NCBI RefSeq assembly: GCF_965213695.1
Contig: NZ_OZ243912.1
Span: 2,297,482 to 2,361,481, forward strand
Length of the DNA: 64,000 bases
From: Rubrivirga sp.
GTDB taxonomy: Bacteria; Bacteroidota; Rhodothermia; Rhodothermales; Rubricoccaceae
Direction of reading: 5' to 3'
The position numbers and the translations under genes were made by a program. Positions 10,884 to 17,004 of this stretch are shown here, one piece after another. The notes beneath the pieces are model-generated. The model saw only the letters and a list, made by a program, of their open reading frames with translations. It had not been told where the DNA came from and did no database searches. The first letter of the stretch is position 1, and every line of letters begins with the position of its first letter.

Positions 10884-12841
<1,958 letters not shown>

Positions 12842-12848
12842 GGCTAGG

Positions 12849-13106
12849 CTAGCCGAAGAACCACCCCCCGAACGCGGTCACGCGCTCGACGATGGTCTCG
12901 ATGTTGGCGTAGAAATAAAACGCGAGCACGAGCCCCAGGCCGACGGCGATGAACTGGGGCTGCTTGGTCTTGCGCTGGCGCCGCTCGCTGGGCCGCACGA
13001 ACTGGAGCTGGCGCTTGCGGCGGGCCTCGGCGTCGGGGTCGTAGAACCGGGGCTGGTACGAGTACCCGCGCGGGCGAGCCATCTTGCCGCTGTTGAGTCC
13101 GAGCAT
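12849..13106 (-). CDS. Small hypothetical membrane protein
   Basis: MLGLNSGKMARPRGYSYQPRFYDP... with a C-terminal TM helix; TACCTT -10-like hexamer at 13129-13134. Confidence 0.55.
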   Translation of the reverse strand: MLGLNSGKMARPRGYSYQPRFYDPDAEARRKRQLQFVRPSERRQRKTKQPQFIAVGLGLVLAFYFYANIETIVERVTAFGGWFFG

Positions 13107-13281
13107 GGGTCGATTCGTCGTGTGCGGCAAGGTAACGACCGCCACCGGGCGTCCGTGCCCGGGGTCGGCCGGAGGCAAGGTGGCTTGGGCCGGTGACACC
13201 GGACGGTCAGCCGGCGCGAAGCCGTGCTGCCGACAGAGACCTGGGACGACGCGGCCGGTGGACGCCTGCTGTCAAGACCGA

Positions 13282-13325
13282 TGGGGAGAGCCCAAGGAGG
13301 AGTGGGGAGAGCCCAAGGAGGAGTG
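13282..13325. repeat. Tandem duplication of a 21-bp unit (TGGGGAGAGCCCAAGGAGGAG x2)
   Basis: Exact copies at 13282-13302 and 13303-13323. Confidence 0.9.
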
Positions 13326-13499
13326 CGGCCCGCCAGCGCTTCGCCGGAGAGGATCTGACCGACCCGACGTCGCGGCGCCGACGCTCCAACGACCGAGCAG
13401 TCCTCCCACGAGGGGTGCAGGGCGAGGCTTCCCCTACCGTACCGGAAACGCCCTACTTGACAAGAACCTGGTTATGGGGGTTCTACCGCGTGGTGCCGT

Positions 13500-13769
13500 C
13501 TACGACCGCGCAAGGAGGCTGTCGTAGTCCGCGTGAGACCCGATCCAGAACCACACGACGGTGTCGTCGTCGATCTGACCCACTGCCCGGTACCCCTTCG
13601 ACACCCGGGCCGAGTAGAGCGGGGCCGTCGTGTGGACCCGCTTGAACTGGAGGCTCGGGGGGTGCGGGTCGGCCGCGGACTGCCGGTACGCCTTCCACGC
13701 CTGCTCCTGGACCTTCTCCGGGAGCGCGTCGAGCCGCTTGCGGAACGCCTTCGTCGTCTTCGACCGCAC
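13500..13769 (-). CDS. Type II toxin, RelE/ParE-like
   Basis: MRSKTTKAFRKRLDALP...HPPSLQFKRV...YSARVSKGYRAVG...VVWFWIGSHADYD; follows a small acidic gene. Confidence 0.8.
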   Translation of the reverse strand: MRSKTTKAFRKRLDALPEKVQEQAWKAYRQSAADPHPPSLQFKRVHTTAPLYSARVSKGYRAVGQIDDDTVVWFWIGSHADYDSLLARS

Positions 13770-13771
13770 CG

Positions 13772-13999
13772 CTACGGCCGCCCGAGTCCGTCCGGGTCGA
13801 GGTCCTCCGTCTCCCCCGCCCGGTGCTCGGCCATCGCCTCGGCCGCCAGCGCGGCGAGCGTGTCCTGGGACTGGGCGAACGCGGCGTCCCACCGGGCGTC
13901 GTCCTCGATCTCGTCGAGGAGGAGCGAGGCGAGGGCGTCTTGCTGGTCGTCCGGGAGGGCGGCGGCCTTCGAGACCGCCTTCTCTAGCAGGGCCGTCAT
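13772..13999 (-). CDS. Cognate antitoxin
   Basis: 75-aa acidic protein (MTALLEKAVSKAAALPDDQQDALA...WDAAF) ending 2 bp before the toxin. Confidence 0.75.
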   Translation of the reverse strand: MTALLEKAVSKAAALPDDQQDALASLLLDEIEDDARWDAAFAQSQDTLAALAAEAMAEHRAGETEDLDPDGLGRP

Positions 14000-14060
14000 G
14001 GCGAGAGCGAGGAGGTTGAGGTCAACGTACGCCGGGGGGTGCCGCCCGTTTCTGAGCGCG

Positions 14061-14189
14061 GTAGAACAGATGGACGCTCAGCCGCGTGAAGCTGAGGGCA
14101 CAGCACTGGGCCGAAGCGGTGGAGACGCCGAAGCTACGGACGGCCGAGAACGCTGGCGCTTCACGTCGGCCTGCAGCGGCGGGTTACAC
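14061..14189 (-). other. attC recombination site (129 bp)
   Basis: Minus strand: R'' GTGTAAC (contains the upstream gene's TAA), 5-nt spacer, arm GCTGCAGGCCGACGTGAAGC pairing over 17 bp with GCTTCACGCGGCTGAGC via 3 bulged bases, 8-nt spacer, R' GTTCTAC. Confidence 0.78.
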
Positions 14190-14831
14190 CGCGCGGTGGA
14201 TTTGCTGACGGTACTCCTCCTCGAACTGGACGCCCGCCCGTAGATAATGCCGGAGGCTCTGGAACGATTCGTCTATCCCGATCACCTCATTCAGTCGAAG
14301 CTCGGCGTCCCGGTGGGGGCCAACGATTGCGCTGATTAGGCGACCGATGCGTTGGAGCGAGTCGTGGACGTCTCGGAATGTGACCGGATGTTCCTCCGTG
14401 ACCTCGCGCTGCGGTTCAGAGAAGTAATCGCCCGCGATATGGACGAAGTACGCATTTCGCTGCTTCCGAAATCGCGCGAGCACGTCCTCGACTTCGCCGA
14501 GGATCGCTCGGCCTCGTGCGACCGCTTCCTTGACCTCGTCTGGCCCGCCAGCGCGGAACGCTTGGGGGTGTCGCTCCGCGTATCTGAGAAGCGTGTAGAC
14601 GCTGACGGCCCCGCGCGTTGTGTCAATCAAACGATTGAGCCGCAGCGTGGCGCAGTCGATGTGAGCGTTAAAGGTTGAGCGGAAAAACGCGGGCGCCGTC
14701 TCGATCAACTCCGGCTCGTCGCGTCCGAGATCGTTGATGTGACGCCAAAACTGGTAATGGACTATTCCGTTCAGGCATTCCCTTGTGAGTCGCTCGATCA
14801 GCCTGTCCAGATGGTCGCCGGGCGTGCTCAT
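14184..14831 (-). CDS. HEPN-domain protein (AbiU2-like), gene cassette
   Basis: Helical protein with RNAYFVH (Rx5H) motif; visibly more AT-rich than flanks; stop lies inside R''. Confidence 0.65.
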   Translation of the reverse strand: MSTPGDHLDRLIERLTRECLNGIVHYQFWRHINDLGRDEPELIETAPAFFRSTFNAHIDCATLRLNRLIDTTRGAVSVYTLLRYAERHPQAFRAGGPDEVKEAVARGRAILGEVEDVLARFRKQRNAYFVHIAGDYFSEPQREVTEEHPVTFRDVHDSLQRIGRLISAIVGPHRDAELRLNEVIGIDESFQSLRHYLRAGVQFEEEYRQQIHRAV

Positions 14832-14841
14832 TGGTAGCGCG

Positions 14842-14860
14842 GTGTAACCAGAAGTTCTGC
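14842..14860 (-). other. attI-like simple site
   Basis: Minus strand GCAGAAC-TTCTG-GTTACAC: inverse core, 5-bp spacer, GTT core; 16 nt before the cassette ATG. Confidence 0.55.
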
Positions 14861-14889
14861 TGACTGCTCGTCGGCAACAAGTCTCCCTC

Positions 14890-17004
14890 TCACTCCGCGT
14901 CCGCCGTCCGGGCCGAGACGAGGTCGCTCTGGACGTCACGCGGCACGGGGTCGTAATGGCTCGGACGGGCCCGGTGGAGCCCGCGGCCCTGCGTCATCGA
15001 GCGGAGCGACGTCGAGTAGCGGTAGAGCTCGGCCTCGGGGACGTGGGCCACGATCTTCTGGAACGGCCCCTCGGCGTCCATCCCCTGGATCCGCGCGCGG
15101 CGCGTGTTGAGGTCGCCCAGGACGTCGCCCATGTAGGACTCGGGCACCAGCACCTCGAGCTCGACGACGGGCTCCAGGATGGCCGGCTGGGCGTCGCGGA
15201 ACCCGTCGCGGAAGGCCATCTTCGACGCCGTCTTGAAGGCGTTCTCGTTCGAGTCGACCGAGTGCATCGACCCGTCGAACACGACCACGCGGACGTCGCC
15301 GACCGGGTACCCGGCGACCGGCCCCTCGCGCAGCATCTCGGCCACGCCCTTCTGGATGGCCCCGAAAAACCGCTGCATGTCGATGACGCCGCCCACGATC
15401 GCGTCGACGTAGTGGACGCGGCTGCCCCAATCGGTCTCGGCCGTGTGCTCGCCCCGGACCTTCATCGTCCCGTCCGGCACGAAGTCGCGGTCCATCGGCT
15501 CGACCCGGATCGAGATCTCGGCGAACTGGCCGGCCCCGCCCGTCTGCTTCTTGTGGCGGTAGCGGGCCTCGGCCCGGCCCCGCACCGTCTCGCGGTAGCT
15601 GATCTTGGGCCGCGCGAACGCGACCTCGACGCCGGCGCGGTTCTTCAGCCGGTACTTCGCGATGTCGAGGTGCATCTCGCCCTGCCCGGCGAGGGTGACC
15701 TGGCCGAGGTGAGAGTCGTGCTCGACGACGAGCGACGGGTCCTCCTTGACGATCTGGGCGAGCCCTTGCGCCAGCTTGTCCTCCTCGCCCTGGCGCGCGG
15801 CGCGGATCGCCAGCCGCATCCGGGGCTCGGGGTACTCGACCGGCGTGACCACGGCGTCCGAGCCCCGCGCCCGCAGCGTGTCGCCGGTCGACGTGTGCTT
15901 GAGCTTGACCGTCACGCCGATGTCGCCGGCCACGAGTTGGGGGACCGAGTCGCGGTTCGTCCCGTTGACGGCGAAGAGGGCGCCCAACCGCTCCGTCGTC
16001 CCGTCGCTCGCGTTCTCGAGGTCCATCCCGCCCGTCAGCATCCCGTCGTAGACCTTGAGGTACGAGTACTCGCCGACGTGCTCCTCGGCCATCGTCCGGA
16101 ACACGAAGGCGACCGGGTCGGCCTGGGCGTCGACCGAGACCGTGCCCGCGTCCATGTGCGGCGGCTCCATCTCGGCCGGGTTCGGGCAGACGTTGTCGAT
16201 AAAGCTCATCAGCCGCGACACGCCGACGTTCTCGCTCGCGACGGTCAGGAAGACCGGGAACAGGTCGCGCGCGATCATGGCCTTGTGCAGGCCCGTCCGC
16301 ATCTCGTCCTCCGTCAGCTCGCCCTTGTCGAAGTACAGCTCCATGAGCCCCTCGTCGTTCTCGGCGATGCTCTCGACGAGCTCGTTGTGGAGCTGGGCCG
16401 CGCGCTCCGAGAAGGCGTCGCCGATGGGCTCGAAGTGGGCCTGGCCGCGGTCGTCGAACCGGATCTGCTTCATGAGCAGGACGTCGACGATGGTCCGCGT
16501 GCCGGCCCCGGCGGGGAGCTGGACCGGGATGGCCGCCCGGCCGTAGCGCCCCTGGATCTTGGCCAGCGTCGTGGCGAAGTCGGAGTCGGCCGTGTCGAGC
16601 TTGTTGAGGACGAAGAGGGCCGGCGTCTCGGTCATCGCGGCGTAGGTCCACGCCAGCTCCGTCCCGACCTGGACGCCCTCGGCCGCGTCGATCACGAACG
16701 CGGCCGTGTCGGCGACCTTGAGCGCCGTGATGGTCTCGGCCGAGAAGTCGAGGTAGCCCGGCGTGTCGAGCACGTTGATCTTGTGGCCCTCCCACTCGGC
16801 GTGGAGGACCGACGTGAACACGGACATCTCGCGCTCGCGCTCGCTCTCGTGGAAGTCGCTGGCGGTCGAGCCCTCGGCCACGGTCCCCATCCGAGGGACC
16901 GCCCCGGCGCTGAACAGCATGGCCTCAGCGAGGGTCGTCTTCCCGCTCCCCTGGTGGCCCACCAAGGCGACGTTGCGGATGTGGGCGGCGTCGTAGACGG
17001 TCAT
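14890..17004 (-). CDS. fusA: Elongation factor G paralog (EF-G2 type)
   Basis: GHQGSGKT, DTPGY, NKLD, GQGEMHL, KKQTGGAGQF; switch I reads EREMSV rather than RGITI. Confidence 0.9.
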   Translation of the reverse strand: MTVYDAAHIRNVALVGHQGSGKTTLAEAMLFSAGAVPRMGTVAEGSTASDFHESEREREMSVFTSVLHAEWEGHKINVLDTPGYLDFSAETITALKVADTAAFVIDAAEGVQVGTELAWTYAAMTETPALFVLNKLDTADSDFATTLAKIQGRYGRAAIPVQLPAGAGTRTIVDVLLMKQIRFDDRGQAHFEPIGDAFSERAAQLHNELVESIAENDEGLMELYFDKGELTEDEMRTGLHKAMIARDLFPVFLTVASENVGVSRLMSFIDNVCPNPAEMEPPHMDAGTVSVDAQADPVAFVFRTMAEEHVGEYSYLKVYDGMLTGGMDLENASDGTTERLGALFAVNGTNRDSVPQLVAGDIGVTVKLKHTSTGDTLRARGSDAVVTPVEYPEPRMRLAIRAARQGEEDKLAQGLAQIVKEDPSLVVEHDSHLGQVTLAGQGEMHLDIAKYRLKNRAGVEVAFARPKISYRETVRGRAEARYRHKKQTGGAGQFAEISIRVEPMDRDFVPDGTMKVRGEHTAETDWGSRVHYVDAIVGGVIDMQRFFGAIQKGVAEMLREGPVAGYPVGDVRVVVFDGSMHSVDSNENAFKTASKMAFRDGFRDAQPAILEPVVELEVLVPESYMGDVLGDLNTRRARIQGMDAEGPFQKIVAHVPEAELYRYSTSLRSMTQGRGLHRARPSHYDPVPRDVQSDLVSARTADAE

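What the first reader, a model, noticed from the sequence alone, without database searches (positions are those of the whole stretch)
13461..14889. Integrase-less integron-like array (attI-like site + two cassettes) directly behind an EF-G gene
Seen in sequence, minus strand: (1) 29 bp after the EF-G stop lies GCAGAAC-TTCTG-GTTACAC, matching attI simple-site geometry. (2) The HEPN ORF starts 16 nt after the GTT crossover and stops inside GTGTAAC, which opens a 129-bp hairpin with three bulged bases. (3) Each cassette's 5' end is complementary to its own R'': GTTACACCGCGC (14848-14837) vs GCGCGGTGTAAC (14194-14183), and GTTCTACCGCG (14067-14057) vs CGCGGTAGAAC (13490-13480). Established: this self-complementarity is the trace left by circular cassettes integrated by IntI. 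Normally intI lies upstream of attI; here a co-oriented housekeeping gene occupies that position. Inference: a satellite integration platform served by an integrase in trans, with cassettes read through from the EF-G promoter. Caveat: the L'-R' spacer is 8 nt, versus about 6 in classical attC.
Basis: partly seen in the sequence, partly recalled or inferred. Interest (0 to 1): 0.82.

Follow-up and report, generated by a model that had tools for sequence, protein, structure and literature searches.

The report
Integrase-less integron cassettes behind EF-G2
Two genuine integron gene cassettes (a HEPN/AbiU2 protein and a ParE-type toxin-antitoxin pair) sit directly behind an elongation-factor G2 gene at a copy-like version of the integron's own attachment site, 190 kb from the only integrase gene; this is a known kind of element (an integrase-less cassette array) with an unusual attI-like entry site.

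Summary
The 129-nt hairpin (window 14189-14061, minus strand) is a typical member of a 48-copy attC family in this Rubrivirga genome. The fold is supported by compensatory changes and three invariant bulged bases. Both cassettes start with 11-12 nt complementary to their own R'' box, as circular cassettes integrated by IntI should.

An intact integron integrase with a true attI (GCAGAAG-TACTG-G|TTCTAC) lies 190 kb away. The site behind EF-G2 (GCAGAAC-TTCTG-G|TTACAC) is of the same 7-5-7 class, which also sits next to intI in seven other genomes of the genus. Most relatives have an empty EF-G2 site, so the cassettes are an insertion.

- The second cassette has no attC. After its R'' box comes a 266-bp remnant of an IS1111-type element that targets attC sites, followed by a deletion joint.
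- The locus is not unique. 17 of 19 attC clusters in this genome lack an integrase. Most start with the same attI-like site, usually at or just after the stop codon of a co-oriented host gene.

Known attG sites show only a GWT consensus, so this is a variant of the known CALIN/SALIN kind. Current activity and read-through transcription from EF-G2 are untested.

The parts
14890..17004 (-). EF-G2-like elongation factor G paralog (704 aa), co-oriented with the cassettes and occupying the position where intI/Pc would be in a complete integron
   Evidence: Pfam GTP_EFTU, EFG_III, EFG_IV and EFG_C. NCBIfam NF009381 846 bits (cut-off 583); EFG2_Bacteroid 790 bits, below its cut-off of 1000. Orthologs are found across Rubricoccaceae.
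14861..14889 (-). 29-nt spacer between the EF-G2 stop and the attI-like site; no terminator-like hairpin
   Evidence: Sequence and terminator scan. It aligns only weakly with the closest relative.
14842..14860 (-). attI-like 7-5-7 simple site GCAGAAC-TTCTG-G|TTACAC. L-box 14860-14854, spacer 14853-14849, R-box 14848-14842. The crossover falls between 14848 and 14847.
   Evidence: 13 of 15 positions match the true attI GCAGAAGTACTGGTT beside intI. The pattern GCAGAA.T.CTGGTT has only 3 hits in 4.4 Mb, all at array heads. The same class of site lies next to intI in 7 genomes of the genus.
14067..14847 (-). Cassette 1 (781 nt): HEPN/AbiU2 ORF plus its attC
   Evidence: The start TTACACCGCGC is complementary to its own R'' flank GCGCGGTGTAA (13-nt perfect inverted repeat). 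The same rule holds genome-wide.
14184..14831 (-). HEPN_AbiU2-family ORF (215 aa); its stop codon lies inside R''
   Evidence: Pfam PF18734, E = 2.5e-13. No PADLOC or NCBIfam hit. No paralog in the genome.
14061..14189 (-). attC of cassette 1 (129 nt): R'' GTGTAAC, three extrahelical bases, R' G|TTCTAC (hybrid with cassette 2)
   Evidence: Covariance model hit of 134.7 bits, E = 8e-28. Covariation and invariant bulges. 0 mismatches to both conserved arms. 87% identical to an attC of the integrase-linked array at genome position 2517521.
13480..14066 (-). Cassette 2 (truncated): ParE-type toxin-antitoxin pair. It begins TTCTACCGCG and ends with its own R'' CGCGGTAGAAC (13490-13480); the rest of its attC is missing.
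   Evidence: 11-nt perfect inverted repeat. Paralogous pairs occur as cassettes at genome positions 1674 kb and 2518 kb in the main array, and in genome G006 with a decayed attC.
13772..13999 (-). Antitoxin-like ORF (75 aa)
   Evidence: Its stop lies 2 nt upstream of the toxin's start codon. 54% identical to a paralog at 1674 kb that lies next to a ParE paralog. No family hit.
13500..13769 (-). ParE-like toxin ORF (89 aa)
   Evidence: Pfam PF24732 ParE_like, E = 1.2e-10.
13214..13479 (+). 266-bp remnant of the non-coding 3' end of an IS110/IS1111-family element of the attC-targeting type. It abuts R'' of cassette 2, and a deletion cuts it off at about 13214.
   Evidence: 70-79% identical copies occur inside attC arrays of other genomes in the genus. 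Intact copies there carry a DEDD_Tnp_IS110 + Transposase_20 ORF in the opposite orientation to the cassettes, and the attC resumes after the IS. This genome holds a single copy.
12849..13213 (-). Native chromosome resumes: a conserved upstream segment and a small 116-aa gene, which in relatives follow EF-G2 after only about 100-210 bp
   Evidence: Homology with genomes of the genus resumes at query position 2087-2091, which is window ~13214. Relatives L011-L013 show EF-G directly followed by this gene.

Best explanation
This is a small integron cassette array that lacks its own integrase. By attC count it is a SALIN; by gene content it holds two cassettes.

Likely history:
1. The genome's single integron integrase, encoded 190 kb away, integrated circular cassettes at a double-stranded site just downstream of an EF-G2 gene. 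That site has the geometry and sequence of the lineage's own attI: an L-box, a 5-nt spacer and G|TT.
2. The toxin-antitoxin cassette probably entered first and the HEPN/AbiU2 cassette second, each at the G|TT of the head site. Alternatively, both entered together as one two-cassette circle.
3. Later, an IS1111-type element that targets attC sites inserted just after the R'' box of the toxin-antitoxin cassette.
4. A deletion then removed the transposase, the rest of that attC and anything downstream. This fused the IS stub to the chromosome and left the toxin-antitoxin cassette unable to excise.

The HEPN cassette still has both recombination partners: the head site and an intact attC.

Shown:
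- attC family membership and fold.
- Cassette boundaries.
- The attI-like head and its match to real attI sites.
- IntI present in trans.
- The cassettes are an insertion relative to relatives.
- The IS remnant.

Inferred:
- That IntI made the left junction.
- The order of events.
- That the cassettes are transcribed from the EF-G2 promoter.
For: attC:
- The covariance model finds 48 copies, and the window copy scores 134.7 bits.
- Nine stem pairs carry compensatory changes, and three bulges are invariant.

Cassette logic:
- Own-R'' complementarity of 11-12 nt holds at both window cassettes and at most cassettes of the genome.

Integrase:
- TIGR02249 scores 405 bits against a cut-off of 265. 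The frame is open and carries the IntI insertion GWQFVFPS and the catalytic motifs.
- The true attI lies 136 nt beyond the intI match.

Head site:
- The a-priori 15-mer pattern hits only the true attI, this locus and another array head.
- The same site class lies next to intI in 7 genomes of the genus.
- 12 of 16 strict-pattern sites lie in the oriented 2-kb heads of attC clusters.

Insertion:
- Relatives have EF-G followed by the small gene after 100-210 bp.
- Flanking synteny (EF-G2, small gene, mutL) is kept, which argues against a rearrangement.
- No IntI remnant lies within 3 kb upstream.

IS remnant: with the literature on IS1111 elements that target attC ends and carry a downstream non-coding region (PMC11187229).
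Against: - The right junction is not an IntI product, so at least one illegitimate event shaped the locus.
- Whether the L-box and spacer at this locus pre-existed in the chromosome cannot be resolved, because the 29-nt spacer barely aligns with relatives.
- At four other loci, homology with empty sites ends at the stop codon. There the 'AAC-NNNTG-G' part could be native or imported.
- No evidence exists of present-day recombination or of transcription.
- The closest relative has an unrelated insert without any attC at the same intergenic spot. The region therefore accepts insertions by other routes too.
Confidence: 0.85

Rival explanations
1. The array is a fragment of the main integron, or of a second decayed integron, that was moved or left here by chromosomal rearrangement or integrase loss. 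The head site would then be an inherited true attI rather than a secondary site.
For: Rearrangement and integrase loss are accepted origins for CALINs (PMC4889954). The window attC is 87% identical to one in the main array. Some other heads are paralogous copies of each other (1898 kb and 3388 kb, 72% over 400 nt).
Against: Synteny of EF-G2, the small gene and mutL is intact, and relatives have an empty site, so this is a 1.65-kb insertion rather than a breakpoint. No IntI remnant lies upstream at E <= 1. The sequence upstream of the L-box shows no similarity to the true attI region with its two TTATGCG boxes. Only 29 nt separate the site from the EF-G2 stop.
Confidence: 0.07
2. This is ordinary attG-type insertion. 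IntI inserted the cassettes at a random GWT site, and the resemblance of the left flank to attI is coincidence.
For: Cassette insertion at genomic GWT sites is experimentally established, and such cassettes are expressed when near promoters (bioRxiv 10.1101/2022.09.11.507474). The crossover here, G|TT, fits GWT.
Against: The 15-nt pattern shared with the true attI occurs only three times in the genome, always at array heads. 12 of 16 strict-pattern sites lie at heads that cover 0.43% of oriented genome space. The same holds for heads in G008 and G017. The published attG sites are described as greatly different from attI.
Confidence: 0.05
3. The whole block, including the L-box and spacer, was imported by a non-IntI route. 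Candidates are microhomology-mediated or homologous recombination after transformation, or IS-associated capture. The attI-like head would have travelled with the block.
For: The right end is an IS stub fused to the chromosome by a deletion. At other loci, the part common to all heads (AAS-NNNTG-G) starts right after the native stop codon, and the right ends are ragged. The homologous toxin-antitoxin cassette in G006 sits inside a ~190-nt duplication.
Against: The spacers differ between loci (TTCTG, TACTG, CACTG, GGGTG, CGGTG and others), so there is no single donor head. At 1050 kb a relative's empty site already reads CGTAGCGGCTGG, against our CGTAGCGGGTGG|TT, so there the flank is native up to the crossover. 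IS1111 elements move alone as circles (PMC11187229).
Confidence: 0.08

Closest known systems
CALIN / SALIN (clusters of attC sites, or single attC sites, lacking an integron integrase; IntegronFinder classes)
   Same: attC-bounded cassettes with no intI nearby, in a genome that encodes IntI elsewhere. About half of the described CALINs are in such genomes (PMC4889954). The array is small, and no intI pseudogene is nearby.
   Different: Only one complete attC survives, so formally this is a SALIN although two cassettes are present. The array is headed by a site of the lineage's own attI class, which the CALIN/SALIN descriptions do not include.
attG sites (genomic insertion sites of integron cassettes, Loot et al.; bioRxiv 10.1101/2022.09.11.507474)
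   Same: A double-stranded chromosomal site outside the integron, with the crossover at G|TT (fits GWT). The cassettes lie downstream of a host promoter and could be expressed from it.
   Different: The published attG sites share only GWT and are described as structurally unlike attI. Here the flank has a 7-nt L-box and a 5-nt spacer like the real attI, and this recurs at most integrase-less arrays of the genome.
attI simple site of complete integrons (L and R boxes; attI1 also has DR1/DR2)
   Same: Two inversely oriented 7-nt boxes separated by 5 nt, with the crossover at G|TT of the R box and the first cassette starting at TT. 13 of 15 positions match this genome's attI.
   Different: It is not adjacent to intI. 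The two upstream TTATGCG-like boxes seen in the true attI are not clearly present; there is only a weak GTTGCCGAC 18 nt upstream. No Pc or PintI region is present.
IS1111-attC group insertion sequences (for example ISPst6, ISKpn4)
   Same: An IS110/IS1111-family element lodged at one end of an attC in a fixed orientation, with a long non-coding region downstream of the transposase. Intact copies in relatives show exactly this arrangement.
   Different: Only a 266-bp non-coding stub is left in the window. It is a Rubrivirga-specific lineage, and whether it encodes a seekRNA was not tested.
Toxin-antitoxin and defence cassettes of sedentary chromosomal integrons
   Same: A ParE-type toxin-antitoxin cassette and a HEPN/AbiU2 cassette fit the reported content of chromosomal integrons: toxin-antitoxin systems (PMC13108822) and anti-phage systems (bioRxiv 10.1101/2024.07.02.601686). 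Both papers were listed and not read in full.
   Different: Here they lie outside the integron, and the toxin-antitoxin cassette is immobilised. No defence function was tested, and PADLOC gives no hit.

Membership tests
attC site | R'' (RYYYAAC-like) and R' (GTTRRRY-like) boxes at the two ends, with total length about 57-141 nt | tested here: met
   GTGTAAC ... GTTCTAC, 129 nt. Family members carry GTAGAAC, GCATAAC or GGCTAAC at one end and GTTCTAC, GTTATGC or GTTAGGC at the other. A few boxes deviate from the strict IUPAC consensus.
attC site | Imperfect hairpin with conserved structure, variable sequence and extrahelical bases | tested here: met
   RNAalifold on 36 copies finds 23 pairs, 9 with compensatory changes. 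Three unpaired bases (G20, G24, A28) are invariant or nearly so. The single-sequence fold z-scores are modest, -1.5 to -2.4.
attC site | Occurs in arrays next to an integron integrase in the same lineage | tested here: met
   13 copies of the same family follow intI and attI at 2503.7-2521.1 kb. The family is present across the genus.
attC site | Hit by the IntegronFinder attC covariance model | not testable with these tools
   IntegronFinder's model is not available here, and Rfam has no attC family (no hit). A lineage-specific model was built instead.
Integron gene cassette | The first bases after G|TT are complementary to the cassette's own R'', the trace of a circular intermediate | tested here: met
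   12-13 nt for cassette 1 and 11 nt for cassette 2. The same holds at most cassettes genome-wide.
CALIN (IntegronFinder definition) | At least two attC sites clustered, with no intI nearby | tested here: not met
   Only one attC is detectable in the 64-kb window. The second is reduced to its R'' box. No intI lies within about 190 kb. Formally this is a SALIN.
attI site | Simple site of two inverted IntI-binding boxes with a 5-6 nt spacer and the crossover at G|TT | tested here: met
   GCAGAAC-TTCTG-G|TTACAC. It is the same class as the intI-adjacent sites in this genome and 7 others of the genus.
attI site | Located next to intI, with Pc/PintI and accessory direct-repeat binding sites | tested here: not met
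   The upstream neighbour is EF-G2. There is no IntI remnant. The TTATGCG direct repeats of the true attI are absent, leaving only a weak GTTGCCGAC.
attI site | Recombined by the cognate IntI with attC partners | not testable with these tools
   This needs a recombination assay.
attG site | GWT at the crossover and no attI- or attC-like structure | tested here: inconclusive
   G|TT fits GWT, but the flank is attI-like, unlike the published description.
IS1111-attC group IS | DEDD (IS110-type) transposase | tested here: not met
   It is absent from the window. It is present in the intact homologous elements of relatives (PF01548 + PF02371). The window holds only a remnant.
IS1111-attC group IS | Insertion at a fixed position at one end of an attC, with the long non-coding region downstream of tnp | tested here: met
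   All copies start right after GTAGAAC. In intact copies the attC resumes after the IS, and the remnant corresponds to the region downstream of tnp.
ParE/RelE-type type II toxin-antitoxin | A small toxin with a ParE-like domain, preceded by a small closely spaced or overlapping antitoxin gene | tested here: met
   PF24732, E = 1.2e-10. The antitoxin's stop lies 2 nt upstream of the toxin's GTG start. Activity was not tested.
HEPN AbiU2 | Match to PF18734 over most of the profile | tested here: met
   50.4 bits against a cut-off of 26.8, covering profile positions 3-181 of 193. The catalytic motif and function were not examined.

The most novel reading that the evidence does not exclude
In Rubrivirga the integron is distributed. 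Besides the canonical platform, the integrase uses a dozen or more dispersed attI-like simple sites (RYWKAAS-NNNTG-G|TT). Their L-box is typically built on, or lies just after, the stop codon of an expressed, co-oriented host gene. Housekeeping promoters would then act as Pc for captured cassettes. The EF-G2 locus would be one such live secondary platform rather than a dead relic.
Probability: 0.35. Interest if true: 0.72.

Novelty: new variant of a known kind. Interest (0 to 1): 0.5.

Why it matters
Integrase-less cassette arrays are common, but their origin is debated: decay, rearrangement or secondary-site insertion. The experimentally defined genomic sites (attG) show almost no sequence requirement.

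Here one genome offers about 17 natural examples. Most are headed by a site that copies the integron's own attI and sit directly behind co-oriented host genes. For several of them the empty site is visible in relatives.

That makes two questions testable in an environmental, non-clinical lineage:
- Do some integrases select attI-like genomic sites?
- Are cassettes outside the integron expressed from host operons?

For annotation, the locus should be labelled as integron cassettes (HEPN/AbiU2 and a ParE-type toxin-antitoxin pair) plus an IS1111-type remnant, not as ordinary chromosomal genes.

Tried and rejected
- **Rfam scan of 12800-15000:** no hit. The IS stub and the attC are not in Rfam.
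- **PADLOC and NCBIfam on the three cassette proteins:** no hits.
- **Sigma-70 promoter scan:** nothing found, and Bacteroidota-type promoters are not covered.
- **Exact 22-mer of the chromosomal half of the junction:** 0 hits in the metagenome and genome collections, so cassette turnover between strains could not be tested.
- **Short head sites as 3' ends of upstream cassettes (collapsed attC):** rejected. No own-R'' complement lies within 5 kb upstream, and the spacers end in TG-G|TT rather than the CT-G|TT of attC ends.
- **GTAGAAC-12 nt-GTTCTTG after the toxin as a recombination site or collapsed attC:** rejected. The stretch is the end of an IS, and the 'GTT' reads GTC in the other copies.
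- **intI remnants upstream of array heads:** none found. My first attempt used a spurious GC-rich frame and was redone.
- **G017's insert at the same EF-G site:** it is unrelated and has no attC.
Full report
**What is in the sequence**

On the minus strand the window reads as follows:
- An EF-G-family gene at 17004-14890.
- 29 nt of spacer.
- GCAGAAC-TTCTG-GTTACAC at 14860-14842.
- A 215-aa ORF at 14831-14184, which matches Pfam HEPN_AbiU2 (E = 2.5e-13).
- A 129-nt imperfect palindrome at 14189-14061.
- A 75-aa ORF at 13999-13772.
- An 89-aa ORF at 13769-13500, whose start lies 2 nt after the previous ORF's stop and which matches ParE_like (E = 1.2e-10).

On their own they are weak evidence. 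Surrogate sequences give 0.076 perfect 13-nt pairs and 0.86 perfect 11-nt pairs per region.

**The hairpin is a bona fide attC**

The motif GTTCTACCGCG is about ten-fold over-represented in the 4.4-Mb, 72.5% G+C genome, and it occurs in inverted pairs. Searching for the conserved arms gave about 46 full copies of a 121-122-nt core with R''-type and R'-type boxes at the ends.

An alignment of 36 distinct copies shows a stem with compensatory changes at nine pairs. For example, columns 31-111 read CG 13, AU 13, UA 5 and GC 3. Three unpaired bases (G20, G24, A28) are invariant or nearly so.

A covariance model built from the alignment finds 48 sites in the genome. The window copy scores 134.7 bits (E = 8e-28) and is the only one in the window.

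The unpaired spacer is 4 nt on the 5' side and 7 nt on the 3' side in all copies.

**Cassette logic**

For most attC sites, the 11-12 nt made of R'' plus its flank are found reverse-complemented a few hundred bases upstream. They lie exactly at the G|TT of the previous attC or at the head of the array. This is the expected trace of circular cassettes. It applies to both window cassettes: TTACACCGCGC... to ...GCGCGGTGTAAC, and TTCTACCGCG... to ...CGCGGTAGAAC.

**An integrase in trans and the true attI**

The genome is a Rubrivirga (Rhodothermales). It has one integron integrase at C1:2502381-2503337:
- TIGR02249 scores 405 bits against a cut-off of 265.
- The frame is open.
- The IntI-specific insertion GWQFVFPS and the catalytic motifs are present.

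136 nt beyond the intI match lies GCAGAAG-TACTG-G|TTCTAC, followed by an array of 13 attC sites. The EF-G site matches this attI in 13 of 15 positions.

The pattern GCAGAA.T.CTGGTT occurs three times in the genome: at the true attI, at this locus, and at the head of another integrase-less array.

In seven other genomes of the genus, the site next to intI is of the same 7-5-7 class. Examples are ACTGAAG-TTCTG-GTTAGCG, GCTGAAC-TACTG-GTTCTAC and GGTGAAG-TACTG-GTTCTAC. Other genomes carry a second attI class.

**The cassettes are an insertion**

In most genomes of the genus, EF-G2 is followed after 100-210 bp by the small 116-aa gene that lies at 13199-12849 in the window. Homology resumes at window ~13214.

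The closest relative (G017, 94% nucleotide identity in EF-G2) has an unrelated 1.7-kb insert without any attC at this spot.

**The 3' end is an IS stub, not a recombination site**

After the R'' of the toxin-antitoxin cassette (GTAGAAC, 13486-13480), the attC does not continue. Instead, 13479-13214 is 70-79% identical to an element found inside attC arrays of other genomes in the genus. That element always starts right after GTAGAAC.

Intact copies are about 1.4 kb long. They encode a DEDD_Tnp_IS110 + Transposase_20 protein on the strand opposite the cassettes, and the attC resumes after them. This is the behaviour of the IS1111 elements that target one end of attC sites and carry their long non-coding region downstream of tnp (PMC11187229).

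The window retains only that non-coding end. A deletion has removed the transposase, the rest of the attC and whatever followed.

**The locus is one of many**

The 48 attC sites form 19 clusters. Two of them are the integrase-linked array, and 17 have no integrase. Eleven of those 17 are headed by a strict RYWKAAS-NNNTG-G|TT site, and three more by variants.

Counting the true attI as well, 12 of 16 strict-pattern sites in the genome lie in the oriented 2-kb heads of clusters. Those heads make up 0.43% of oriented genome space (binomial P about 7e-26). The pattern was refined post hoc; the a-priori pattern scored 3 of 3.

Other points about the heads:
- They are not the ends of upstream cassettes.
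- They have no IntI remnants upstream.
- In about 12 of 15 heads the upstream gene is co-oriented.
- In five heads the stop codon of a 129-834-aa ORF lies inside the L-box (G-TAG-AAC, TTC-TAA-G, GC-TGA-AC).

Orthologous empty sites in relatives show homology ending at, or 0-3 nt after, the stop codon. It resumes after inserts of 0.9-4 kb whose right ends are ragged.

The 5' half of the L-box is therefore native. Whether AAS-NNNTG-G is native is unresolved:
- At 1050 kb a relative reads CGTAGCGGCTGG against our CGTAGCGGGTGG|TT, which favours a native flank.
- At 1945 kb the relative reads TAG-C-GGAACCC against our TAG|AACCGGTGGTT...|GGAACCC, which leaves both options open.

The same association is seen, less pervasively, in other genomes: G008 has two heads, G017 has one, and G015 shows its true attI. 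Two heads of our genome are paralogous over 400 nt, so some arrays arose by duplication.

**Comparison with what is known**

Integrase-less attC clusters (CALIN) and single sites (SALIN) are established classes. Half of the described CALINs are in genomes that encode IntI elsewhere, and 95% lack a nearby intI pseudogene (PMC4889954).

Cassette insertion outside attI has been shown experimentally. The attG sites found share only GWT and are described as greatly different from attI and attC (bioRxiv 10.1101/2022.09.11.507474).

The present locus fits the SALIN/CALIN class and the secondary-site route. It differs in having an attI-like head, as do most such loci in this genome.

**What is not shown**

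Three things remain untested:
- That IntI still recombines this site.
- That the HEPN and toxin-antitoxin genes are transcribed from EF-G2. The only evidence is that no terminator-like site lies in the 45-nt gap.
- Any function of the HEPN protein.

**Verdict**

Two corrections apply. The terminal attC was destroyed by an IS plus a deletion, and the locus is one of about 17. It is a new variant of a known kind and of moderate interest. The genome-wide pattern of attI-like heads at the stop codons of co-oriented genes is the part worth following up.

Noticed in passing
genome C1:2516107-2516125 (outside the window, inside the integrase-linked array): An internal attI-like site, GTATAAG-TACTG-G|TTACAC, lies in the middle of the main cassette array. 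Its L-box flank is partly complementary (9 of 12) to the start of the preceding cassette. This recalls the 'delta-attI-type' cassettes described for mobile integrons (PMC12901181).
   Followed up: partly
genome C1: heads at 1733256, 1898228 and 3387955: Three integrase-less array heads share extended upstream homology (ATTTGG.GACGGGTC.CTGGATCTGGT...). The 1898-kb and 3388-kb heads are 72% identical over about 400 nt, and their arrays share near-identical cassettes in opposite orientation. This points to a segmental duplication or inversion of a whole array head.
   Followed up: partly
window 13110-13213 (minus strand), and L101 2040-2124 / 1300-1390: A conserved ~90-nt segment (CTGACC.G.CCGGTGTCACCGG ... 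GGTCGTTACCTTGCC) lies upstream of the small 116-aa gene across the genus. In G017 it is duplicated on both sides of an inserted DUF433/PIN-like gene pair. It could be a promoter, a leader or another insertion target.
   Followed up: no
window 13280-13325 (minus strand): A 21-nt tandem duplication (ACTCCTCCTTGGGCTCTCCCC x2) lies inside the IS remnant and is absent from the other copies of the element.
   Followed up: no
L133 and L135 (intI-proximal regions of G010:C15 and G013:C5): A second attI class occurs in the genus (GACGCCCAATACTT-GTTATGT / GTTATCT), distinct from the GAAS-TNCTG-GTT class. Two genomes carry two or three intI copies.
   Followed up: no
L132 (G006:C8) 430-1500: The 77%-identical homolog of the window's toxin-antitoxin cassette sits, with a decayed attC, between two copies of a ~190-nt duplicated segment of a neighbouring gene's 3' end.
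   Followed up: no
window 14861-14889 (minus strand): The 29-nt spacer contains GTTGCCGAC 18 nt upstream of the L-box. In true attI regions of the genus, a TTATGC(C/G)GAC-like box lies 18-20 nt upstream of the L-box. It may be an accessory IntI-binding box or a chance match.
   Followed up: no
genome-wide: The three extrahelical bases of this attC family are G, G and A on the top strand, which is C, C and T on the recombinogenic bottom strand. From memory, classical attC sites usually have T and G there.
   Followed up: no
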